Below are positions 3,812 through 57,610 of a stretch of DNA of 64,000 nucleotides, piece after piece. A program made the translations under genes and the position numbers. The notes beneath the pieces were generated by a model, which did not search any database, was not told the origin of the DNA, and saw only the letters and a program-made list of their open reading frames with translations. Within the stretch, counting starts at the first letter, position 1; each line of letters opens with the position of its first letter. Source of the DNA: Candidatus Aenigmatarchaeota archaeon (lineage in GTDB: Archaea > Aenigmatarchaeota > Aenigmatarchaeia > QMZP01); the NCBI GenBank assembly GCA_016783545.1, contig JADHWJ010000001.1, positions 10,369 through 74,368 on the forward strand, written 5' to 3'.

Positions 3812-4753
3812 TTATATAACCTGCAATGCAACGAAAACCGCATAAATAACTAACAAAATCACACCTTCTTTTTTTGTGATCTTTCTCTTTGTTCTCATGA
3901 AGAATATCAATATCACTGGCAACAAAATGAATATTGGCATACTTATCAGAAATGCCTTATGGCTTATGCTAATTGGAACCAAAAAACTTGCAAGTGCTAT
4001 CCCAAAGATATTGAATATATTACTTCCGATTATATTACCTAATGATATACCATGCATTTTCTTGAAAGCCGCCACAACAGAAGTTGCAATTTCTGGCAGA
4101 CTTGTTCCTACTGCCACAGCTATTATTGCAATCATAAATTCTGGTATGCCCAAAATGGCTGAGATGTCAAGAACAGAATTGACAAGAAGTATTGACCCGA
4201 CAACAATCATTCCTGCGCCAAATACACTAATTGATATGTCTCTGACGGTTTCCTTTTTAGATATTATTTTGCAGAAATTTTTTGTCTTGCTGATCCCGCC
4301 TCTGGAATTCTTAACATAAAGCAAAAAGATAAACATAACCATAAGCAAAATAACACCAGAATACCATGTTATGCCAGCAAACAAAAGAACTGCAAAAATG
4401 CCTGATAACAACAACATGAAATAGCCTTCATCGATATATGTTTTCTTCATTAACATGGATCTTGAAAGTACAGCAAGCCCTAAAACAAGACCTATGTTGG
4501 CTATGTTAGAACCTATCACTGTTCCTGAAGCAATGTCTATCGGTGTGTTCGTAGAGACCACCTGACTGGCTGCTGATACAATGGAAACAGATATCTCAGG
4601 TATGGATGTTGTGAAAGCTACAAAAGTAATTCCTATCATGAACTCTGATATTCCACATTTTTTTGCTATCTTTGATGCATATTCTGTTATATAATCAGCA
4701 CCTTTTACTAAAAGAACAAGGCCTGCAATGAAAAGCAGCAAAGGCATTATCAT
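3812..4753 (-). CDS. Na+/Ca2+ exchanger family (CaCA, YrbG-like) membrane protein
   Basis: About 10 TM segments with the duplicated alpha-repeat signatures GSNIANIGLVLG and GTSLPE / GNIIGSNIFNI. Confidence 0.75.
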   Translation of the reverse strand: MIMPLLLFIAGLVLLVKGADYITEYASKIAKKCGISEFMIGITFVAFTTSIPEISVSIVSAASQVVSTNTPIDIASGTVIGSNIANIGLVLGLAVLSRSMLMKKTYIDEGYFMLLLSGIFAVLLFAGITWYSGVILLMVMFIFLLYVKNSRGGISKTKNFCKIISKKETVRDISISVFGAGMIVVGSILLVNSVLDISAILGIPEFMIAIIAVAVGTSLPEIATSVVAAFKKMHGISLGNIIGSNIFNIFGIALASFLVPISISHKAFLISMPIFILLPVILIFFMRTKRKITKKEGVILLVIYAVFVALQVI

Positions 4754-30711: not shown

Positions 30712-30783
30712 CTATTGCCCAAAAGTTTAATAAATTGTACTCAAATCAATATAATAAGAAATCCAAACAATAAATATATAGTT

Positions 30784-32046
30784 ATGACTATGAAAAAATT
30801 CAAACTCACTGAAGAAGGAGAAAAATATGCAAAAGAAGGCCTTCCGGAAAAGAATCTCATAGAATTATTAACAAAGAAAAAATCATTGGACATGGGAAAG
30901 GCAAAAGACTCTGTTTTTAATTTTGCAATAGCTTTCCAATGGGCAAAGAAAAATAAATGGGTTGATATAAAAAAAGGAAAGCTTATTCTTCTAAGAAAGC
31001 CTGGAAAAATAGCAGAACAGGATGCCCTCCAAAATCTAAGTAACGGAGATGATATTGATGAGAAGACGCTAGACATGTTATGCAAGAGGCGGCTTGTTGA
31101 GGAAATAAGAGAAGATGCACTAAAAAAAGCCCAGAAGCTTGTTGGTAAGGATGTTACAAACCTTACAGAAGATCTTATTAAAACAGGATTGTGGAAAGAC
31201 GTTAAGCTAAAACCATATAATGTGGAGGCTGTTGGTAAGAAAGTTTTCATTGGAAAAAGACAGCCGTATAATGCATTTCTTTCTGAAGTAAGGCAGAAGC
31301 TTGTTGAGCTTGGCTTCAGGGAGATGACAGGTCCTATAATAGAGCTGGAATTCTGGAACTTCGACGCCATGTACCAAGGTCAGGGTCACCCAAGCAGAGA
31401 TTGGACTCAGACATATAATTTAAAAGAACCAAAAATGGGAACACTTCCTGATAAAAATATAGTTAATAATGTAAAAGAAACGCATGAAAATGGTTGGAAG
31501 ACAGGCTCAACTGGTTGGGGTTATGAATGGAATCCCAAGAAAGCAGCGCAGCTTATGCCAAGGGCGCATGGAACAGCTCTTTCTGCGAGAACATTAGCAA
31601 ATATGCCTGAAATACCTGGAAAATATTTTGCAATAGCGAGATGCTATAGACCAGATATTATAGACGCTACGCATGGTGTTGAATTTAACCAAACAGAAGG
31701 TATTGTCATTGATAAAGATTTGAATTTTAGAAATCTTTTAGGTTTATTAAAACAGTTTGCAGTTGAATTTGCAAGCGCAGATAAAGTTAAGTTTCATGCT
31801 GATTACTATCCATTTACCGAACCATCTGTTCAGTTGTCAGCAAAGCATCCAGAATTAGGTTGGGTAGAATTTGCAGGTGCGGGTATTTTCAGACCAGAAT
31901 TCACACAGCCATTGGGTGTCATGGAGCCTGTATTAGCATGGGGACTCGGAATAGATAGATTGGCCATGTTTAAATTAGATATAAAAGATATCAGAAATCT
32001 ATTTACTAGGAATTTAGGCTGGTTGAGAAAAAGAAGTGTGTTGTAA
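30784..32046 (+). CDS. pheS: phenylalanyl-tRNA synthetase alpha subunit (archaeal)
   Basis: Class II motifs: FREMTGP, YYPFTEPSVQL, GAGIFRPEF, GLGIDRLAM. I chose the start at MTMKKF to avoid overlap with the convergent MTase. Confidence 0.9.
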   Translation: MTMKKFKLTEEGEKYAKEGLPEKNLIELLTKKKSLDMGKAKDSVFNFAIAFQWAKKNKWVDIKKGKLILLRKPGKIAEQDALQNLSNGDDIDEKTLDMLCKRRLVEEIREDALKKAQKLVGKDVTNLTEDLIKTGLWKDVKLKPYNVEAVGKKVFIGKRQPYNAFLSEVRQKLVELGFREMTGPIIELEFWNFDAMYQGQGHPSRDWTQTYNLKEPKMGTLPDKNIVNNVKETHENGWKTGSTGWGYEWNPKKAAQLMPRAHGTALSARTLANMPEIPGKYFAIARCYRPDIIDATHGVEFNQTEGIVIDKDLNFRNLLGLLKQFAVEFASADKVKFHADYYPFTEPSVQLSAKHPELGWVEFAGAGIFRPEFTQPLGVMEPVLAWGLGIDRLAMFKLDIKDIRNLFTRNLGWLRKRSVL

Positions 32047-32088
32047 TTATTTCTAAAATTTAAATATATGTAAATACAATATATATAC

Positions 32089-32232
32089 ATGGTAAATAAA
32101 AAATTTGAAAGAATAATTGATGCAAAATTATGGAAAACTGGAAATGCAATAGTGGTTACAATACCTTCTTCTATTATTAAAAAATTCAAAATGAATGAAG
32201 GGGATATTATAGAAGTAAGAATAAAGAGATGA
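32089..32232 (+). CDS. 47-aa AbrB/SpoVT/MazE-like swapped-hairpin protein
   Basis: MVNKKFERIIDAKLWKTGNAIVVTIPSSIIKKFKMNEGDIIEVRIKR has the typical AbrB-type beta-hairpin pattern. Its stop overlaps the ATG of the next gene (ATGA). It is below the 60-aa cutoff of the ORF track. Confidence 0.45.
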   Translation: MVNKKFERIIDAKLWKTGNAIVVTIPSSIIKKFKMNEGDIIEVRIKR

Positions 32233-33224
32233 ATATCATGAATGTTAAAAGAAAAGTATCAAAAAAAATATTAAAAAATTTATATTGGAAGGAAGGCTAT
32301 TCATTATCTAGAATCGGTAAAATTGTCGGAATGTCATATAGTGGTGTAGCTTACTATATGAAAAAATTCGGTATAAGAAGGAGACCATCTGACACTAGGA
32401 ATTATCCGAAATTCAATTTTTCTGGAAATCTTATTGAAAAATCTTATATGTTGGGGTTTAGGGCAGGAGATTTATACTCTAAGAGGAAATGCAATAATAT
32501 TAAGATTGAAACAACATCTTCCAAGGAGATATTCTTGGATCTTTTCCATGAAATTTTTGAAAAATATGGTATAGTAAGAGCATATGAAAGAAAGGGAAGT
32601 CTTACTAAAAAGACATTTAAAATGCATTGTTATTTGAACAATTCTTTTAATTTTCTATTAAGAAAGCCTCTAAGAATTCCTAAATGGATAATTAAAAATA
32701 ATAAATGTTTTTTTTCATTCTTTGGCGGTTATTCTGATGCTGAAGGTAGCTGGGTAATAACAAATCATAAATATAGAGATTCTATTAATAAAGATAGTAT
32801 GTTTTGTATGAGGAGTTGTGATAAAGATATAATGCATCAGATTCATGATGGATTAACAAAGAATAATCTGAAATCAAATCTATATCTCGAGAGAAAGAAA
32901 GGCACTTGCACAAACATAGGGAAATATAAATCAGATCTATATAAAATTTGCTTGTATGGTAAAAATGCATTAAAATTGGCAGCTTTAACTTTACCGTTTA
33001 GTAGATATGCATGTAAAAAATACAAAATGGAATCTATAATAGAACTTGAAAATAGTAAAATAATGAATCTAGGAACTTTAAATATAAGTTGCATTTCTTG
33101 TGATCATAAAAAAGTTCGTAAAAACGGTTCTTATGGATATAAAAACAAAAGATTTCAAAGATATAAATGTCCTATATGTAAAAAGGTTTTTTCCGAACAA
33201 ACTCTAAGGAAGCAGGTGATATAA
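32229..33224 (+). CDS. free-standing double-motif LAGLIDADG homing-endonuclease-like protein with N-terminal HTH and C-terminal IS1595/IS1-type zinc ribbon
   Basis: SYMLGFRAGDLYS and FFGGYSDAEGSWVI are the two LAGLIDADG motifs. The N-terminal HTH is YSLSRIGKIVGMSYSGVAYYMKK. The C-terminus is CISCDHKKVRKNGSYGYKNKRFQRYKCPICKKVF. The region is markedly more AT-rich than pheS and pheT. Confidence 0.55.
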   Translation: MNIMNVKRKVSKKILKNLYWKEGYSLSRIGKIVGMSYSGVAYYMKKFGIRRRPSDTRNYPKFNFSGNLIEKSYMLGFRAGDLYSKRKCNNIKIETTSSKEIFLDLFHEIFEKYGIVRAYERKGSLTKKTFKMHCYLNNSFNFLLRKPLRIPKWIIKNNKCFFSFFGGYSDAEGSWVITNHKYRDSINKDSMFCMRSCDKDIMHQIHDGLTKNNLKSNLYLERKKGTCTNIGKYKSDLYKICLYGKNALKLAALTLPFSRYACKKYKMESIIELENSKIMNLGTLNISCISCDHKKVRKNGSYGYKNKRFQRYKCPICKKVFSEQTLRKQVI

Positions 33225-34885
33225 TGCCAACAATAGAACTCTCACACTCAGACCTTTGCAGTCTAATGGGAACAGTTGTTTCAGTCAAAGACCTGGAAGA
33301 GAATGTTATAATGTATGCGAAGGGTGAAGTGGAAGAAATAGATGGAGATAATCTTAAGATTGACATTAAGGACACTAATAGGCCTGATCTATGGTCAGCT
33401 GAAGGAATAGCAAGGGAGATAAAGTTTAGACTTTCTCCTGGAAAATTACCGAAATATAAAATGAAAAAATCAGGAAGAAAAATACTGGTTTCCAAAGAAA
33501 TGAAAAACATAAGACCTCTTATTGCAGCAGCAATAGTAAAGGATATAGTTATTACAGAAGAACTTTTACTCCAGATGATACACTTACAAGATAAAGTCGA
33601 TGAAACATTTGGAAGAAAAAGAAAAGAAGTTGCAATTGGTATTTATGACTATGATAAAGTAAAGGGTGATATAGAATATAGAGCAGCTGATCCAAACAAG
33701 GTTAAGTTTGTTCCACTAGAATTTAAAAAGGAGCTAAGCTTAAAGGAAATATTAAATCAGCATCCAAAGGGCAAGGCATATGCACACCTTATAAGAAAAT
33801 ATCCTAAATACCCTCTTCTCGCAGATTCTGAAGGTGATATTCTTTCAATGCCTCCTGTAATAAATTCCAATTATTCAGGCAAGGTAGAGGAAACAACAAA
33901 GAATTTAATGATTGAGGTAACAGGATATAGTGAAAAATATGTAAGTACTGCAATCAGTGTTTTAGCAGCCGCACTATCGGATAGAGGAGGAAAACCGGAA
34001 TCTGTTGAGATCGTTTATCCAGATAGAAAGGTAACAACACCTAACATGAAACCAAAAAGTATATCTATTGATATCGAATTAATAAGGAAAATTTCTGGAC
34101 TGGATCTGACAAACAATGAAATATATGATCTTCTGAAAAAATCTGGTTATGGTATAAAATCAAAATCCAAAAAAACTAAGCTTCTATACCCTGCATATAG
34201 GCAAGACGTAATGCATCCTATTGATGTTGTGGAAGATGTTATAATATCATATGGATATGGTAATGTTGAGGTAAAAGTTCCTGAGATAGCTACAACAGGG
34301 AAGGCAGATGAGACTGAGGTATTTTCCAAGAGGATTGCAGAAGTAATGGTAGGTCTTGGTATGCAAGAAATACTCTCCTATACACTTACAAATAAAAATG
34401 ATCTCTTTGGGAAAATGAATAAGAAGGAAGAACCTATTGCTGAAATAGAAAATATTGTTTCTTCAAATTGGTCAGTTTTTAGGAACTGGCTTCTCCCAAG
34501 TGTTTTGGAATTCCTACTCCAAAATAAACACATTGAATATCCGCAAGAGGTTTTTGAAATTGGAGATTGTGTTGTTTTGGATAATTTCCAACCAACTAAA
34601 ACAAGAAATGTCAGAAAACTTGCAGGTGCAATAACAAATAGCACTGTCAACTATGAGCAGATTGCTTCTTATGTGGATGCTCTGATAAGTGCAATTGGGA
34701 TTAAATACAAACTAAGAAAAACAAATCATCCAAGTTTTGTCAATGGTAGATGTGCAGAGATATTCGTAGAAAACAAATCTATTGGTTTTGTTGGTGAGAT
34801 AAGCCCAAAGGTTCTCAATAAATGGGGACTGGAAAAACCTGTAACAGCATTTGAGGTAGATTTGGAAAATCTAAAACCTATTTAA
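33224..34885 (+). CDS. pheT: phenylalanyl-tRNA synthetase beta subunit (archaeal)
   Basis: 553 aa with an N-terminal B3/4-like domain (DIKDTNRPDLWSAEGIAREI). The C-terminal B5 and catalytic-like domains are typical of archaeal PheT. Confidence 0.88.
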   Translation: MPTIELSHSDLCSLMGTVVSVKDLEENVIMYAKGEVEEIDGDNLKIDIKDTNRPDLWSAEGIAREIKFRLSPGKLPKYKMKKSGRKILVSKEMKNIRPLIAAAIVKDIVITEELLLQMIHLQDKVDETFGRKRKEVAIGIYDYDKVKGDIEYRAADPNKVKFVPLEFKKELSLKEILNQHPKGKAYAHLIRKYPKYPLLADSEGDILSMPPVINSNYSGKVEETTKNLMIEVTGYSEKYVSTAISVLAAALSDRGGKPESVEIVYPDRKVTTPNMKPKSISIDIELIRKISGLDLTNNEIYDLLKKSGYGIKSKSKKTKLLYPAYRQDVMHPIDVVEDVIISYGYGNVEVKVPEIATTGKADETEVFSKRIAEVMVGLGMQEILSYTLTNKNDLFGKMNKKEEPIAEIENIVSSNWSVFRNWLLPSVLEFLLQNKHIEYPQEVFEIGDCVVLDNFQPTKTRNVRKLAGAITNSTVNYEQIASYVDALISAIGIKYKLRKTNHPSFVNGRCAEIFVENKSIGFVGEISPKVLNKWGLEKPVTAFEVDLENLKPI

Positions 34886-54623: not shown

Positions 54624-55028
54624 ATGGGTCATAGAAGCAGCATACCTCTATATTGGAGATTACAGAAATCAAAGTATAATTTAGTTGGAACAAAATGCAA
54701 AACATGTGGAAAGCTCTATTTTCCACCAAGACAGCTCTGTTCAGAATGTAGAAGAAAGGGTGAGATAGAAGACTTTAGTTTCTCTGGTAAAGGAGAGATA
54801 ATTTCATTTACAGTTATAAGAGCAGCCCCAGAAGGATTTGAAAAATACACACCTTATGCAATTGCATTAATAAAACTGGAAGAAGGTGAAGTTATCTCAG
54901 GTCAGATAGTTGGTGATGTTACTAAAGTCGAAGAAGGAAAAAAAGTGAAGTCTGTTTTCAGAAGAATGCATGAAGACGGAAAAGATGGCGTCATCTTTTA
55001 TGGTGTCAAATTTCAATTAGTTGGTTAG
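54624..55028 (+). CDS. DUF35 OB-fold/zinc-ribbon scaffold protein of the thiolase-HMGCS complex
   Basis: CKTCGKLYFPPRQLCSECRR is a rubredoxin-like zinc ribbon, followed by an OB-fold. Its start abuts the thiolase stop. Confidence 0.8.
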   Translation: MGHRSSIPLYWRLQKSKYNLVGTKCKTCGKLYFPPRQLCSECRRKGEIEDFSFSGKGEIISFTVIRAAPEGFEKYTPYAIALIKLEEGEVISGQIVGDVTKVEEGKKVKSVFRRMHEDGKDGVIFYGVKFQLVG

Positions 55029-57610
55029 AGTATGTCCATATCTGTCTTATTCAGCCTCTTTTCAAATAGTTTCATTAATCTGTATGTCATGGAAGCTGGG
55101 AATTTTTTATAGAATCGCCTGAAAAGAAGCCCTTTTCTAATTCCTTTACCAATAACACTTTCCCATTCTTTTTCATATTGGCTTAAGAAGGATTCTGAAA
55201 AATTATTTTCTCTAAGAGCTTTTTGAATTGTTTCAGCTGCTTTTTCAGCTGCTGTAAACCCATAAACAACACCACCACCACTATTATGAAGTATTAATGG
55301 ACCAAGGCCTCCTATAAACATATTACTTTTTGGAACTTCTATATCAAAAACATCTCTATTTGTTTTTATTTTTCTAATCTCTTTTATAGGGAGAAGTATC
55401 ATTTTATTTTTAATTAATTTTTTTATAAACTCTTTTTCTCTACCATTTCCAATTTTATTCAAACCTTTCAATAATTTTTCATAACTGAGAATATTACAGC
55501 TTTTGTTTTTACATCTATTTGAAATGTATTTTCCAACCTCAGTTTTTATTAGTTCATTTATCATATCATTTGATAAAATGTTTTTTGGAAAACCAAATGT
55601 GGGTCTGGATTTAATATTATTTAAGTATTTTTTAATTTCTATTTTATTTGGGAAAATATCTGAAAGTTTTTCTAAATCTTTTTTGGAGGAAAAACTAATT
55701 TTATATGATTTACTGGTTTTTATTTTTTTATTGTAGAATGAATGTACTCTGCTTTCTGATTCCTCAACTGATGGAAACAAACCCAGTTGCAATGAAAGTA
55801 TAATAATATCACTGGCAAGTTTACGGCTAGCTGTTTTAGAAGAAATTTCTGCAGACCAATTTCTTCTTTTTTCTGGCATTCTAACTCTGCAGAATCCATC
55901 ACCTTTCATATAAGCCTTTAAAAACTCAATCTTCACTTCATCTGAAATGTTGAAAATTATATATGGAATTTGTTTATTATATGCATTCTTACCCGTTTCC
56001 AGTATGTCAGTAAATATTTTGGCAAGTAATTTTCCACCAAAAGATATAGGAAATTCTGTTTCTTCTTTTGTATACGGATTTTTTCTTGGTTTCCAGAAAC
56101 TTATATTAATTCCAAACGTTTTACCAATACAATCTATTAGATCATCCATAATACCGTTTTTAATATCATCTTTTCCTAAGGACATGTGAATGTGTTTACC
56201 TTTTGATGAGTCTCCTTCAGCAATATAATAACCGAGAATACGGCAAAATTCAGGTGTTATTTTAATTATATTCGGAATTTCTACTTTCTTTTTTGGAGGT
56301 TCATAGACAATTCTGACATCTTTAGGTATAATTTTTTCATTCAAAAATAATTTTAGAGGTATAGAGTCGCGGTCCCAATATGTTGTTCTATAATTTATTG
56401 GAACTTCAGAACGCTTAGAAAAAAGAAGTTTTTTCCCTCCTCTAACACGAATTTTTTTCACAAATTCGGGATATTTTTTTATTATCAAATTAATTAAATT
56501 CAGTTCTGTTATATTATTTGCATTATTAGGAACACTTGAAGTAAAAAGTAAGTGATCTTTTTTAGGTTCCAATTCAGAAACTTTTTTAGGCATCAAATTA
56601 AAATCATTTACACAAATTACACTGTGTGAACCTGTTGTCTTAACCCTATAACCTTTATTTGTGATTATTTCAAACATGTTTTCATCCAGTTTATGTTCTA
56701 AACACGATTTTATTTTCATAAAATTTAGAAGAGAAGCATTCTTAGATGGTGAAAATGCATAAATATTTTTTATTTTATTGTTTCTAAAATTGTTAACTAC
56801 TTCTTCTATCTTTACATTTTTTATAAGTCCGTTTTCTTTTATAATTATACTTTCTTCTCCATCAATGCTCCACGGTTTGACCTGTCCTGCTGCATCTCCA
56901 ACTAAGAGAACTCTTTCAGCATAGCTTTTACAGCTACCGATTGGTATCAAAGCGCCCATTCTTTCATAGTCTTTAAGATCAAAGAATCTTTCCAAATCTA
57001 GAAATTTTGCATTCTTTCCAAGTATTCCATATTCTGTTGTTTCCCCTCTTGGAATCTTCCATAGAAAACCATCAGTTATTTTTTTATCATACCAGAGCTC
57101 AACAAAATTATTATTATTTTTTTCTGAAACAGTTGCTATTAGACCATTTACAAGTTCTGTTCTATATCCAAGGAAATCCCTGACAGAAGAGCTTGCACCA
57201 TCACAACCAACCAAGAGTTTTGTATTTAACTTCCCTTTAGTAGTTTCAACAATCAGATGATCTTTAGCCTTTTCAAAACCAATGAACTTTGTATTGAGTT
57301 TAATTTTGGATTCAAGACTCTTTGCAAGACTCTTGTCAAATTTTGACCTATCTAAAACATAGGCCGCTGTCTTTTCTTTGACTAGATTTATAGTGCCTGA
57401 ATTGAAATGTATTTTTGCACCCCTCACTTCATGTTCTAGAAAGTCCTTATTTACTGGAACGAATTTTTCCAAGTTAGTTGATATTAGACCAGAACATGGT
57501 TTCTTACCAATATGGTCTTTGCTTTCAAGAATAACAACATCCAAATCGCTTAGCTTATGTGCTAAGAAAAGTCCAACAGGTCCTGCACCAACAATAACAA
57601 CATCATGCAT
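55025..57610 (-). CDS. geranylgeranyl reductase family flavoprotein interrupted by a 529-aa intein
   Basis: The N-terminus is VVIVGAGPVGLFLAHKL (FAD GxGxxG). The N-extein ends ...VGDAAGQVKPW and the C-extein resumes SGGGVVYGF, so the reconstructed GDAAGQVKPWSGGGV matches the conserved GGR motif GDAAG..P..GGGI. Confidence 0.75.
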   Translation of the reverse strand: MHDVVIVGAGPVGLFLAHKLSDLDVVILESKDHIGKKPCSGLISTNLEKFVPVNKDFLEHEVRGAKIHFNSGTINLVKEKTAAYVLDRSKFDKSLAKSLESKIKLNTKFIGFEKAKDHLIVETTKGKLNTKLLVGCDGASSSVRDFLGYRTELVNGLIATVSEKNNNNFVELWYDKKITDGFLWKIPRGETTEYGILGKNAKFLDLERFFDLKDYERMGALIPIGSCKSYAERVLLVGDAAGQVKPWSIDGEESIIIKENGLIKNVKIEEVVNNFRNNKIKNIYAFSPSKNASLLNFMKIKSCLEHKLDENMFEIITNKGYRVKTTGSHSVICVNDFNLMPKKVSELEPKKDHLLFTSSVPNNANNITELNLINLIIKKYPEFVKKIRVRGGKKLLFSKRSEVPINYRTTYWDRDSIPLKLFLNEKIIPKDVRIVYEPPKKKVEIPNIIKITPEFCRILGYYIAEGDSSKGKHIHMSLGKDDIKNGIMDDLIDCIGKTFGINISFWKPRKNPYTKEETEFPISFGGKLLAKIFTDILETGKNAYNKQIPYIIFNISDEVKIEFLKAYMKGDGFCRVRMPEKRRNWSAEISSKTASRKLASDIIILSLQLGLFPSVEESESRVHSFYNKKIKTSKSYKISFSSKKDLEKLSDIFPNKIEIKKYLNNIKSRPTFGFPKNILSNDMINELIKTEVGKYISNRCKNKSCNILSYEKLLKGLNKIGNGREKEFIKKLIKNKMILLPIKEIRKIKTNRDVFDIEVPKSNMFIGGLGPLILHNSGGGVVYGFTAAEKAAETIQKALRENNFSESFLSQYEKEWESVIGKGIRKGLLFRRFYKKFPASMTYRLMKLFEKRLNKTDMDIL
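55283..56869 (-). mobile_element. intein with LAGLIDADG homing-endonuclease domain inside the GGR gene
   Basis: It begins SIDGEESIIIKENG...KTTGSHSV (splicing blocks A and B). It contains LGYYIAEGD and LKAYMKGDG (LAGLIDADG motifs) and ends ...GLGPLILHN, followed by Ser+1. Confidence 0.7.

What the first reader, a model, noticed from the sequence alone, without database searches (positions are those of the whole stretch)
32089..33224. HTH-LAGLIDADG-zinc-ribbon gene plus overlapping AbrB-like mini-ORF wedged between pheS and pheT
pheS and pheT are normally adjacent. Here a 1.2-kb, strongly AT-shifted insert separates them and encodes a 47-aa AbrB/MazE-type swapped-hairpin protein. Its stop overlaps the start of a 331-aa protein with an N-terminal HTH, two LAGLIDADG motifs and a C-terminal transposase-type zinc ribbon (motifs in the feature evidence). 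It looks like a free-standing homing-endonuclease or transposase-derived selfish element, or a domesticated regulator, that landed in an essential operon.
Basis: partly seen in the sequence, partly recalled or inferred. Interest (0 to 1): 0.6.

Follow-up and report, generated by a model that had tools for sequence, protein, structure and literature searches.

The report
Mobile homing-endonuclease cassette between pheS and pheT
A small selfish DNA cassette, made of a tiny DNA-binding regulator gene and a DNA-cutting "homing" enzyme gene with its own promoter, sits between the two genes of an essential archaeal enzyme, and comparison with related genomes indicates it copies itself into that same spot in other species.

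Summary
A 1,177-bp insert separates archaeal pheS and pheT and is the lowest-GC stretch of the window. It encodes a 47-aa AbrB-like protein overlapping a 331-aa HTH–LAGLIDADG–zinc-ribbon protein.

The predicted structure (pLDDT 89.5) matches single-chain LAGLIDADG homing endonucleases. Both catalytic acidic residues (D81, E172) are invariant in all 14 homologues.

About 70 of 80 related genomes have pheS abutting pheT. Eleven independent carriers hold the gene at the same site, scattered over the host tree. The gene is up to 65–68% identical between hosts whose PheT is only 45–49% identical. Its GC3 is far below that of its flanks. One carrier (L083) has a mosaic pheS 3' end matching a distant carrier (p = 1e-10), the signature of co-conversion.

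The mini-ORF is an integral part of the element. In 24 of 24 testable loci its homologues precede an overlapping HTH-LAGLIDADG gene. A conserved TATA box plus palindromic operator (GTAWWTAY-N3-RTAWWTAC) precedes them, mostly next to aspS.

Verdict: a free-standing, probably self-repressed LAGLIDADG homing cassette. It is not an IS1 transposase, as NCBI labels it, and not a domesticated regulator. Cleavage and repression are inferred. I found no prior description.

The parts
30781..32046 (+). pheS (archaeal PheRS alpha subunit), the upstream host gene. In other carriers its 3' ~0.4 kb shows co-conversion.
   Evidence: NCBIfam PRK04172 1.7e-154 and Pfam tRNA-synt_2d 3.1e-75. The mosaic PheS in L083 is shown.
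32059..32068 (+). TATA-box-like element TTTAAATATA of the cassette promoter, centred about 25 nt upstream of the mini-ORF ATG. This spacing predicts a leaderless or near-leaderless transcript (inferred).
   Evidence: Sequence read. An equivalent TTTATATA or TTTAAATA is present at the same place in all cassette loci.
32070..32088 (+). Putative operator GTAAATAC-AAT-ATATATAC: two 8-bp palindromic boxes, 11 bp centre to centre, abutting the start codon.
   Evidence: Pattern GTAWWTAY-N3-RTAWWTAC has 1 hit in the window with 0 expected. It occurs once in each of the 32 mini-ORF-bearing loci and in 0 of 104 other loci.
32089..32232 (+). 47-aa AbrB/MazE/SpoVT-type (swapped-hairpin) DNA-binding protein, the proposed autorepressor of the cassette.
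   Evidence: Pfam MazE_antitoxin E 2.8e-4 (below cut-off) and TIGR02609 2.5e-5. Family profile vs PDB hits 48-54-aa archaeal AbrB regulators 5itm/2l66/5itj at E ~6e-4. AF2 pLDDT 78.7, with best folds RIFT/MazE/VapB/SpoVT but weak. The family is 71-73% identical per column.
32229..33224 (+). 331-aa HTH-LAGLIDADG-Zn-ribbon endonuclease gene (NCBI starts it at 32238, giving 328 aa, and names it 'IS1 family transposase').
   Evidence: 100% match to P0001. AF2 pLDDT 89.5, pTM 0.73. Foldseek prob 1.00 to E-DreI, I-Tsp061I, I-DmoI, I-SceI, I-AniI, PI-PfuI.
32256..32366 (+). N-terminal three-helix HTH domain (aa 10-46). It is present in 1-3 copies in the wider family.
   Evidence: Pfam HTH_24 E 2.6e-3. 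Helices 12-21, 26-33 and 37-46 in the model. Repeated HTH units appear in P0012-14.
32451..32474 (+). LAGLIDADG motif 1 (LGFRAGDL). Catalytic D81 is at 32469-32471.
   Evidence: G80 and D81 are invariant in 14 of 14 homologues.
32721..32750 (+). LAGLIDADG motif 2 (FGGYSDAEGS). Catalytic E172 is at 32742-32744.
   Evidence: D170 and E172 are invariant in 14 of 14 homologues.
33075..33203 (+). C-terminal C4 zinc ribbon (C288, C291, C314, C317). It is specific to the pheS-pheT subfamily and duplicated in some members.
   Evidence: NCBIfam IS1/IS1595 Zn domain E 5.7e-4 and Pfam Zn_ribbon_InsA 5e-3. The cysteines are conserved in all 9 subfamily members and absent from P0010-14.
33215..33226 (+). 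GGTGAT Shine-Dalgarno inside the last codons of the endonuclease gene, followed by the TAATG stop/start overlap with pheT. This reproduces the coupling that pheS provides at empty sites.
   Evidence: Sequence read. Empty junctions read ...AAGGTGATnnnnTAA|ATGCC....
33224..34885 (+). pheT (archaeal PheRS beta subunit), the downstream host gene.
   Evidence: TIGR00471 pheT_arch 6.2e-168.

Best explanation
The insert is a self-contained, free-standing LAGLIDADG homing-endonuclease cassette.

Anatomy. An archaeal TATA box and a 19-bp two-box palindromic operator come first. A 47-aa AbrB-type DNA-binding protein follows, translationally coupled to a single-chain LAGLIDADG endonuclease. The endonuclease carries two extra DNA-binding modules, an N-terminal HTH and a C-terminal zinc ribbon.

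Proposed mechanism.
1. The endonuclease recognises a long site in or near the 3' part of pheS, or the pheS-pheT junction, of genomes that lack the cassette, and makes a double-strand break there.
2. The break is repaired by homologous recombination from a cassette-bearing copy. This copies the cassette plus up to ~0.4 kb of the adjoining pheS 3' end into the empty site. It is 'intronless homing', as for T4 mobE between nrdA and nrdB.
3. The insertion is tolerated because pheS stays intact and the last codons of the endonuclease gene recreate the Shine-Dalgarno and the stop/start overlap that couple pheT translation.
4. The AbrB-like dimer binds the operator over the transcription start and keeps nuclease expression low (autorepression).

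Sister cassettes share the same regulator and operator but have very divergent nucleases. They occupy the 3' flank of aspS, another class II aaRS gene.

Shown here: anatomy, fold, retained catalytic residues, patchy distribution, horizontal transfer, a flanking mosaic, and the cassette and operator conservation.

Inferred: cleavage activity and its site, repression by the mini-protein, and the roles of the HTH and zinc ribbon.
For: Fold and active site.
- The AF2 model has pLDDT 89.5. Foldseek gives prob 1.00 to I-Tsp061I, I-DmoI, I-SceI, E-DreI, I-AniI and PI-PfuI.
- D81 and E172 are invariant in 14 of 14 homologues. The neighbouring positions are mostly basic (K99: K/Q/H/R; K199: mostly K). 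These are the criteria that separate active enzymes from WhiA (PMC3384342).

Same site, patchy distribution.
- About 70 of 80 species-level relatives have pheS abutting pheT at 0-20 bp.
- Eleven independent carriers hold the gene at the junction: the window, L001, L004, L091, L008, L083, L086, L072, L098, L099 and L107.
- The eight carriers with full-length pheS fall in at least 5 places on the PheS+PheT tree, next to empty sisters. PheT identity is 78% for L083/L078 and 85% for L072/L067.

Horizontal transfer.
- ORF2 identities are L008-L083 65%, L008-L086 60% and L083-L086 68%.
- For the same pairs PheT is 45%, 42% and 49%, and PheS is 55%, 48% and 54%.
- Within the vertically related L001/L004/L091 group, ORF2 (63-72%) evolves faster than PheT (73-80%).

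Composition. ORF2 GC3 is far below its flanks in every carrier: L008 0.22 vs 0.48/0.53, L086 0.26 vs 0.46/0.49.

Co-conversion.
- L083 PheS residues 1-295 are sister-like at 90 informative sites and L008-like at 5. Residues 296 to the end are 11 vs 19 (Fisher p = 1e-10).
- A PheS variant '[CA]EL' occurs in 4 of 4 clade-II carriers and 0 of 70 empty-site genomes.

Cassette.
- In 24 of 24 testable loci, close mini-ORF homologues are followed by an overlapping HTH-LAGLIDADG gene.
- The operator motif is present once in all 32 mini-bearing loci and in 0 of 104 others, with 0 expected in the window.

Exclusions. No intron or other RNA family and no transposon-like terminal repeats.
Against: - No biochemical evidence exists. 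Neither cleavage nor a target site has been demonstrated.
- Every copy found is intact apart from one HTH-less variant (L099). ORF2 is about as conserved as PheT across carriers. A purely selfish element is expected to leave decayed copies as well.
- Clear co-conversion is documented in only one lineage (L083, with L107 related to it). Other carriers lack close enough empty sisters to test.
- The trees are NJ trees on MAG data, and several loci come from co-assemblies.
- Unrelated genes also occupy this junction in other lineages, so the site may simply tolerate insertions.
- Five of eleven carriers lack the mini-ORF and the operator, so autorepression is not essential.
- In the window itself the AT shift is mostly an amino-acid-composition effect.
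- The window genome has no close relative in the data, so the timing of its own acquisition is unknown.
Confidence: 0.75

Rival explanations
1. Domesticated host gene. An ex-homing-endonuclease is retained as a DNA-binding regulator or other beneficial factor of the pheST operon. It was inherited vertically from an ancestor of these archaea and lost many times.
For: - All copies are intact, and ORF2 identity to the window copy (50/43/51%) is close to that of PheT (52/44/53%).
- The gene is tightly translationally coupled to pheT, and in L001/L004/L091/L086 also to pheS, without a promoter of its own.
- It has extra HTH and Zn-ribbon DNA-binding modules, as WhiA has an HTH (PMC3384342).
Against: - It is absent from about 70 of 80 related species, including close sisters of carriers.
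- ORF2 is 60-68% identical between hosts whose PheT is 42-49% identical, although ORF2 evolves faster than PheT in vertical lineages.
- GC3 is unameliorated, and the pheS flank is mosaic.
- Both catalytic acidic residues are invariant, unlike WhiA (PMC3384342).
- The same regulator and operator travel with very different nucleases at aspS.
Confidence: 0.12
2. Toxin-antitoxin-like addiction module. The AbrB/MazE-type mini-protein is an antitoxin and autorepressor, the LAGLIDADG nuclease is the toxin, and the pair stabilises itself or the locus rather than homing.
For: - The architecture is that of a type II TA system: a small AbrB/MazE-family gene comes first, overlaps the larger gene, and is preceded by a palindromic operator at the promoter.
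- The best NCBIfam hit is 'putative addiction module antidote' (TIGR02609, 2.5e-5).
- The pairing is strict in 24 of 24 loci.
Against: - The mini-protein (47 aa) is only the DNA-binding domain and has no C-terminal toxin-binding extension.
- Five of eleven carriers keep an intact, catalytically complete nuclease without any mini-ORF.
- Nothing in a TA model explains the fixed insertion site, the empty-site polymorphism or the co-converted flank.
- The cassette is not detected by name in any family library scanned here. The PADLOC and TA-specific libraries were not scanned.
Confidence: 0.08
3. IS1-family transposase or insertion sequence, as annotated in the NCBI record.
For: The NCBI product name for the 100% identical protein P0001. 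There are weak hits of aa 288-325 to IS1/IS1595 N-terminal zinc-binding models (E 1.3e-4 to 5.7e-4, far below cut-offs).
Against: - The match covers only the 35-aa zinc ribbon. There is no DDE domain.
- The rest of the protein folds as a LAGLIDADG endonuclease.
- There are no terminal inverted repeats or target-site duplication.
- All copies occupy one site rather than many. There are no paralogues in the window, and none of this subfamily elsewhere in the fetched loci apart from a weak LAGLIDADG match in L050.
Confidence: 0.01

Closest known systems
Free-standing homing endonucleases of T-even phages ('intronless homing'), especially T4 mobE between nrdA and nrdB (PMC2988022, PMC2790892)
   Same: - The gene sits in the intergenic space between conserved genes; for mobE these encode the two subunits of one essential enzyme.
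- It shows presence/absence polymorphism at a fixed site.
- Flanking DNA is co-converted over hundreds of bp.
- It must fit into host operon expression.
   Different: - The catalytic family differs: LAGLIDADG here, GIY-YIG or HNH in T4.
- The host is a cellular archaeal (DPANN) chromosome, not a phage.
- This cassette has a dedicated AbrB-type partner gene and its own promoter and operator.
- Activity has not been shown.
Archaeal intron- and intein-encoded single-chain LAGLIDADG endonucleases (I-DmoI, I-Tsp061I, PI-PfuI)
   Same: [quoted passage not shown]
- It has two LAGLIDADG helices with terminal acidic residues.
- Foldseek prob 1.00, TM (target-normalised) up to 0.68.
   Different: - It is not embedded in an intron or intein.
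- Sequence identity is only 12-16%.
- It has an added N-terminal HTH and C-terminal zinc ribbon.
- It is partnered with a regulator gene.
WhiA/DUF199 (bacterial LAGLIDADG + HTH transcription factor; PMC3384342)
   Same: A LAGLIDADG scaffold fused to an HTH domain. It provides a possible route to domestication.
   Different: [quoted passage not shown]
- Here D81 and E172 are invariant and the gene is patchy and horizontally transferred.
- The HTH is N-terminal here, not C-terminal.
I-TevI autorepression and type II toxin-antitoxin operons with AbrB/MazE-fold antitoxins (MazE, VapB)
   Same: Nuclease expression is controlled by binding to an operator at its own promoter. A small AbrB-fold gene comes first, overlaps the second gene, and is preceded by a palindromic operator.
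   Different: - In I-TevI the endonuclease itself is the repressor.
- In TA systems the antitoxin has a toxin-binding tail and the toxin is not a site-specific homing enzyme.
- Here the regulator is a bare 47-aa DNA-binding domain, most similar to stand-alone archaeal AbrB proteins (5itm/2l66).

Membership tests
LAGLIDADG homing endonuclease (single-chain, two-motif) | [quoted passage not shown] | tested here: met
   Motifs at aa 75-82 and 165-174. The model's secondary structure is H68-81/E/E/H/E/E/H and H158-172/E/E/H/E/E/H. Foldseek prob 1.00 to I-DmoI, I-SceI, I-Tsp061I and others.
LAGLIDADG homing endonuclease (single-chain, two-motif) | Metal-binding acidic residue at the C-terminal end of each motif (I-DmoI D20/E117) | tested here: met
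   D81 and E172 are invariant in 14 of 14 homologues down to 33% identity.
LAGLIDADG homing endonuclease (single-chain, two-motif) | Neighbouring basic or polar catalytic residues (I-DmoI K43/K130; I-CreI Q47/K98) | tested here: inconclusive
   Candidate positions are K99 (K/Q/H/R across the family) and K199 (K in 10 of 14, otherwise E/R/L/I). No structural superposition could be done with these tools.
LAGLIDADG homing endonuclease (single-chain, two-motif) | Match to a curated LAGLIDADG sequence model above threshold | tested here: inconclusive
   The window protein gives no Pfam LAGLIDADG hit at E<=1. Homologues do: PF14528 precomputed for P0002-5, 7 and 10, and L098 scores 29.4 bits against a cut-off of 22.5.
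LAGLIDADG homing endonuclease (single-chain, two-motif) | Site-specific double-strand cleavage of a 14-40-bp target | not testable with these tools
   Requires biochemistry.
Free-standing HEG spreading by intronless homing | Located between conserved genes, not within an intron or intein | tested here: met
   It lies between pheS and pheT as separate ORFs. No Rfam family matches at E<=1.
Free-standing HEG spreading by intronless homing | Occupied and empty alleles of the same site among related genomes | tested here: met
   Eleven carriers against about 70 empty junctions. Empty sisters have 78-85% PheT identity to carriers.
Free-standing HEG spreading by intronless homing | Element phylogeny incongruent with host flanks (horizontal spread) | tested here: met
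   ORF2 is 60-68% identical where PheT is 42-49% and PheS 48-55%. GC3 is far below the flanks.
Free-standing HEG spreading by intronless homing | Co-conversion of flanking host sequence | tested here: met
   L083 PheS is a mosaic with Fisher p = 1e-10. A carrier-specific PheS variant occurs in 4 of 4 clade-II carriers vs 0 of 70 empties. Only one lineage is cleanly testable.
Free-standing HEG spreading by intronless homing | Endonuclease cleaves the HEG-less allele | not testable with these tools
   Requires a cleavage assay on empty-junction DNA.
AbrB/MazE/SpoVT swapped-hairpin DNA-binding domain (mini-ORF) | Sequence or structure match to the family | tested here: inconclusive
   Pfam PF04014 scores 21.2 bits against a cut-off of 24.7. 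PF04014 is precomputed for several homologues. The family profile vs PDB hits archaeal AbrB regulators at E 5.6e-4. Foldseek top hits are all this fold but at E >= 0.14. The overall picture is consistent but sub-threshold.
Type II toxin-antitoxin module | Antitoxin has a toxin-neutralising extension beyond the DNA-binding domain | tested here: not met
   The protein is 47 aa, which is the DNA-binding domain only. Relatives add at most ~10 K/E-rich residues.
Type II toxin-antitoxin module | Toxin gene not maintained without its antitoxin | tested here: not met
   L001, L004, L091, L086 and L072 carry an intact nuclease gene without the mini-ORF or operator.
IS1-family transposase (NCBI annotation) | DDE transposase catalytic domain | tested here: not met
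   The NF033558 match is restricted to aa 288-325 of 331 (profile positions 1-35 of 199), 22 bits against a cut-off of 100.
IS1-family transposase (NCBI annotation) | Terminal inverted repeats, target-site duplication, multiple copies | tested here: not met
   No flanking repeats beyond AT-rich chance matches. No paralogue in the window or elsewhere in the carriers' loci.
WhiA-like domesticated LAGLIDADG regulator | Loss of catalytic residues and uniform vertical presence in a clade | tested here: not met
   Catalytic residues are retained. The distribution is patchy and horizontally transferred.

The most novel reading that the evidence does not exclude
The most novel reading that the evidence does not exclude has three parts.

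1. This is the first recognised family of autoregulated, TA-like two-gene homing cassettes. It combines a portable promoter and operator, an ultra-conserved AbrB-type governor, and an interchangeable HTH-LAGLIDADG nuclease.
2. The family practises intronless homing in cellular archaeal chromosomes.
3. It has radiated by retargeting between paralogous class II aminoacyl-tRNA synthetase genes (pheS and aspS), possibly by recognising DNA that encodes shared class II motifs.

On this reading the mini-protein is not merely a repressor. It would be an obligatory cofactor or antitoxin-like brake that makes such nucleases tolerable in tiny DPANN genomes.
Probability: 0.25. Interest if true: 0.8.

Novelty: new variant of a known kind. 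Interest (0 to 1): 0.66.

Why it matters
- Free-standing homing endonucleases and 'intronless homing' are known almost entirely from phages, with GIY-YIG and HNH enzymes. LAGLIDADG enzymes are known mainly from introns and inteins. A LAGLIDADG cassette that homes between the subunit genes of an essential aaRS in archaeal chromosomes would extend the phenomenon to a new enzyme family, a new host type and a new class of targets.
- It also brings its own repressor and operator. This gives a compact natural example of how a genome-cutting selfish gene is kept harmless.
- The conserved operator and regulator pair, combined with highly divergent nucleases, provides a ready-made series of natural specificity variants. 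These carry accessory HTH and zinc-ribbon modules and could interest meganuclease engineers.
- Practically, the finding corrects a database misannotation ('IS1 family transposase').
- It also warns that aaRS genes of DPANN archaea, which are used as phylogenetic markers, can carry co-converted foreign tracts.

Tried and rejected
- Degraded ORF2 remnants in intermediate-sized pheS-pheT gaps (L021/25/26/28, L029, L052, L056, L066, L067, L077). hmmsearch with the family profile found nothing. These gaps hold unrelated genes.
- Homology between the L067 low-GC gap and the L072 spacer, as a footprint of excision. blastn found none.
- Paralogues of ORF2 in the window. None were found.
- The cassette in viral contigs. 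None were found.
- Intron or other structured RNA in the insert. Rfam gave no hit at E<=1.
- Transposon ends. There were none.
- The similarity between the ORF2 C-terminus (LRKQVI*) and the pheS C-terminus of empty sites (WLRKQVIV*), first read as a target-site duplication. I rejected it as unproven. The shared GGTGAT Shine-Dalgarno plus the TAATG overlap forces [K/Q]-V-I-* in that frame, the DNA differs at nearly every codon, and other carriers end differently.
- A co-conversion signal on the pheT side. No dip in identity was seen.
- Direct PDB sequence search with ORF2. It returned only a spurious zinc-finger hit.
- The sigma-70 promoter scan is uninformative for an archaeon.
- Literature searches for AbrB+LAGLIDADG, homing endonuclease+pheS/pheT, and Aenigmarchaeota+LAGLIDADG found no prior description.
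Full report
**1. What is in the window**

The region holds four co-directional, tightly packed ORFs.
- pheS, 30781-32046. NCBIfam archaeal PheRS alpha, E 1.7e-154.
- A 47-aa ORF, 32089-32232.
- A 331-aa ORF, 32229-33224.
- pheT, 33224-34885. TIGR00471 pheT_arch, E 6.2e-168.

The mini-ORF's TGA overlaps the ATG of the 331-aa ORF. The TAA of the 331-aa ORF overlaps the pheT ATG, and it is preceded by a GGTGAT Shine-Dalgarno.

The 1,177 bp between pheS and pheT have 26.3% GC, against a window mean of 35.9% (sd 3.1). This is the lowest value for any window of that size in the 64 kb. The window is 100% identical to a Candidatus Aenigmarchaeota MAG, in which the 331-aa product is named 'IS1 family transposase'.

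**2. What the two proteins are**

Sequence models give only sub-threshold hits for the 331-aa protein. These are HTH_24 (aa 10-46), an IS1/InsA-type zinc ribbon (aa 283-325), and no LAGLIDADG hit.

Homologues at 33-51% identity do carry PF14528. In the 14-sequence alignment, G80/D81 of motif 1 (LGFRAGDL) and D170/E172 of motif 2 (GGYSDAEGS) are invariant.

An AlphaFold2 model built on that alignment is confident (pLDDT 89.5, pTM 0.73). [quoted passage not shown]

Foldseek against the PDB returns only single-chain LAGLIDADG enzymes at probability 1.00. These include E-DreI, I-Tsp061I, I-DmoI, I-SceI, I-AniI, PI-PfuI and I-OnuI.

[quoted passage not shown] The acidic residues are retained here without exception. 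The candidate basic positions (K99, K199) are mostly basic.

The IS1 label rests on about 35 residues of zinc ribbon. There is no DDE domain and there are no terminal repeats.

The 47-aa protein scores just below threshold for MazE/AbrB models. A profile of its family hits 48-54-aa archaeal AbrB-type regulators in the PDB (5itm, 2l66, 5itj; E ~6e-4). Its model (pLDDT 78.7) finds only swapped-hairpin or cradle-loop folds as best matches, and those matches are weak.

**3.

The first homologues I examined (P0005, P0006, P0007, P0008, P0009) all lie between pheS and pheT. Taken alone, that looked like refutation.

A scan of species-representative genomes with a PheT profile returned 80 loci, mostly Aenigmatarchaeota. 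Mapping pheS, the mini-ORF, ORF2 and pheT onto them gave the following.
- About 70 loci have pheS abutting pheT at -14 to +23 bp. The junction is well conserved: ...AAGGTGATnnnnTAA|ATGCCnACnATAGA.
- Only three of the 80 (L008, L083, L072) carry ORF2.

With metagenome contigs added, there are 11 independent carriers.

On a PheS+PheT NJ tree the carriers with full-length pheS fall in at least five separate places, each beside empty-site relatives. L083's sister L078 has 78% PheT identity and an empty junction. L072's relatives L067 and L066 have 85% and 83%.

**4. Horizontal transfer into the same site**

Pairwise identities among carriers are incongruent.

| Pair | ORF2 | PheT | PheS |
|---|---|---|---|
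| L008-L083 | 65% | 45% | 55% |
| L008-L086 | 60% | 42% | 48% |
| L083-L086 | 68% | 49% | 54% |
| L008-L072 | 62% | 50% | not available |

In the one clade where inheritance looks vertical (L001/L004/L091), ORF2 is 63-72% identical and diverges faster than PheT (73-80%). ORF2 being more similar than the essential flanks across distant hosts therefore implies transfer of ORF2 on its own.

In every carrier ORF2 has lower GC3 than its flanks. The gap is dramatic in GC-richer hosts: L008 0.22 vs 0.48/0.53, L086 0.26 vs 0.46/0.49, L083 0.38 vs 0.50.

In the window itself the shift is mainly at codon positions 1 and 2. There it partly reflects amino-acid composition.

**5. Co-conversion**

Homing by double-strand-break repair drags flanking donor sequence along (PMC2988022).

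- In the last ~130 residues of PheS, L083 is only 62-67% identical to its sisters L078, L080 and L077. Those sisters are 75-88% identical to one another. This gives z = -2.2 to -3.2 against the relation seen in 2,415 empty-empty pairs.
- Its nearest neighbour for that segment is L008, a carrier from a distant host clade, at 75%.
- Site by site, residues 1-295 of L083 PheS are sister-like at 90 informative positions and L008-like at 5. Residues 296 to the end are 11 vs 19 (Fisher p = 1e-10).
- The shared derived segment includes SGYFPFTEPS(C/A)ELY, where the near-universal sequence is PDYYPFTEPSVQLSA.
- A '[CA]EL' variant is present in all four clade-II carriers that have a pheS (L008, L083, L086, L107). 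It is present in none of 70 empty-site genomes.
- No comparable signal is seen on the pheT side.

This fits a break within pheS some hundreds of bp from the insertion point, as described for phage free-standing enzymes. The variant could be hitch-hiking donor sequence or a cleavage-resistant allele. I cannot distinguish the two.

**6. The mini-ORF is part of a conserved cassette**

The mini-protein has close homologues of 44-58 aa with 57-71% identity and an invariant FDAKLWKTGNA core.

Every one whose context could be read is followed by an overlapping HTH-LAGLIDADG gene. That covers three protein look-ups and 24 of 24 testable metagenome loci.

Most of these cassettes lie directly downstream of aspS.
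- The archaeal non-discriminating type in 7 of the 10 upstream genes scanned.
- A bacterial-type aspS in L108 and L117.
- pheS in L107.

The nucleases in the aspS cassettes are only 20-23% identical to ORF2 and lack the zinc ribbon, yet the mini-protein is about 60% identical. Weaker mini-ORF relatives precede unrelated Ig-like-domain proteins and belong to another family.

The DNA upstream of the mini-ORF is also conserved across cassettes. It has a TATA box (TTTATATA or TTTAAATA), followed by two 8-bp palindromic boxes, GTAWWTAY-N3-RTAWWTAC, that end 0-3 nt before the ATG.

In the window the motif occurs exactly once, at 32070-32088, with 0 expected. Among 136 fetched loci it occurs once in each of the 32 mini-ORF-bearing loci and in none of the other 104.

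The TATA box is centred about 25 nt upstream of the ATG. This predicts a leaderless transcript starting within the operator (inference from standard archaeal promoter geometry).

Carriers without the mini-ORF (L001, L004, L091, L086, L072) also lack the operator. In four of them (L001, L004, L091, L086) ORF2 sits 0-14 bp after pheS, so it is presumably expressed by read-through. In L072 pheS is not adjacent.

**7. Best explanation and rivals**

The evidence fits a free-standing LAGLIDADG homing cassette that invades the pheS-pheT junction by break-induced gene conversion and is kept quiet by an AbrB-type autorepressor (confidence 0.75).

The closest known analogue in behaviour is T4 mobE, which sits between nrdA and nrdB. 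The closest in fold are archaeal intron and intein enzymes such as I-DmoI.

The rivals are as follows.
- **Domesticated regulator (0.12).** It is favoured by the uniformly intact copies and tight coupling to pheT. It is contradicted by the patchy distribution, the transfer, and the retained active site.
- **Toxin-antitoxin-like module (0.08).** The architecture matches. However, the mini-protein lacks a neutralising tail, and five carriers keep the nuclease alone.
- **IS1 transposase (0.01).** This is effectively refuted.

Endonuclease activity, its target, and repression by the mini-protein have not been demonstrated.

**8. Novelty**

Homing endonucleases, free-standing ones, and LAGLIDADG enzymes are all known, so this is not a new kind of system. 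Five things appear new.
- The combination of an HTH-LAGLIDADG-zinc-ribbon nuclease with an AbrB-type partner.
- A portable promoter and operator.
- A setting in cellular DPANN archaeal chromosomes.
- Targets beside class II aaRS genes.
- Comparative evidence for intronless homing by a LAGLIDADG enzyme.

Full-text searches found no paper combining AbrB with LAGLIDADG, and none on endonuclease genes at pheS/pheT or in Aenigmarchaeota apart from group I intron work. The wider HTH-LAGLIDADG family is large, with 572 cluster representatives at E<=1e-30. The phenomenon may therefore be widespread and under-annotated.

**9. Caveats**

- All data are MAGs or metagenome contigs, some from co-assemblies.
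- The trees are NJ trees.
- Only one lineage gives a clean co-conversion test.
- The junction also hosts unrelated genes in other lineages.
- The window's own genome has no close relative in the collections, so when it acquired the cassette is unknown.

Noticed in passing
window 55025-57610 (- strand): An 861-aa FAD-dependent (geranylgeranyl-reductase-like) ORF is interrupted by an intein carrying its own LAGLIDADG domain (Pfam Intein_splicing 1.4e-14 over aa 259-776; the intein ends ...LILHN|S). This is the second lowest-GC patch of the window, so the window holds two independent LAGLIDADG elements.
   Followed up: partly
L021/L025/L026/L028 (~4050-4500), L052 3961-4488, L066 960-1964, L056 3492-4445(-), L067 4230-4496: In other Aenigmatarchaeota the pheS-pheT junction holds unrelated genes: NUDIX-like, isochorismatase-like, Ldh_2-like, a ROK-like gene on the opposite strand, and an 89-aa ORF. 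The junction is a general landing pad. Whether endonuclease-induced breaks promote this is unknown. The family names are my reading of the translated sequences, not the result of a family scan.
   Followed up: partly
L072 1331-2816 and 3192-4187: A reverse-transcriptase gene (YVDD motif) and a 175-aa ORF sit directly upstream of the ORF2 homologue. pheS is not within 4.5 kb, so a second mobile element appears to have hit the same locus and separated pheS from pheT.
   Followed up: no
L099 292-1137: In this pheS-pheT carrier the endonuclease gene lacks the N-terminal HTH domain (the alignment starts at residue 61), while the mini-ORF and operator are intact. It may be a partly decayed or trimmed variant.
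   Followed up: no
L086 6032-6559: An extra 175-aa predicted membrane-protein ORF with low GC (0.30 vs 0.45) lies between the ORF2 homologue and pheT. It may be a passenger gene of the element in this lineage.
   Followed up: no
L001/L002 11202-12038 (-); L050 6998-7708: Further LAGLIDADG-type genes lie near the PheRS operon in other genomes. L001/L002 has a separate LAGLIDADG_3 gene about 4 kb downstream. L050 has a weak ORF2-like match (E 3e-7) just downstream of pheT.
   Followed up: no
L108 171-1571, L117 1982-3385: Two AbrB+LAGLIDADG cassettes follow a bacterial-type aspS (NF001750, E 1e-199 to 1e-206) of only ~467 aa rather than the archaeal type. The hosts could be CPR bacteria or archaea with a transferred aspS. 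This was not resolved.
   Followed up: no
L123, L124, L126, L127, L130 and neighbouring loci L131-L133 (ORFs directly downstream of the mini-ORF relatives): More distant relatives of the 47-aa protein (40-55% identity, or only partial matches) overlap the start of large ORFs instead of nucleases. The five scanned (330-541 aa; L123, L124, L126, L127, L130) carry an Ig-like domain. This is a different pairing of the same small DNA-binding fold.
   Followed up: partly
window 32520-32539: A hairpin followed by a T-run lies inside the 5' third of the endonuclease gene. It matches on both strands, counted as 2 found vs 0.3 expected. It resembles the internal terminators in T4 mobE and segF that limit nuclease expression. 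It is only a consensus match, and archaeal termination differs.
   Followed up: no
window 32229-33224: The public record names this protein 'IS1 family transposase'. The name is based only on the C-terminal zinc ribbon and is a misannotation.
   Followed up: yes
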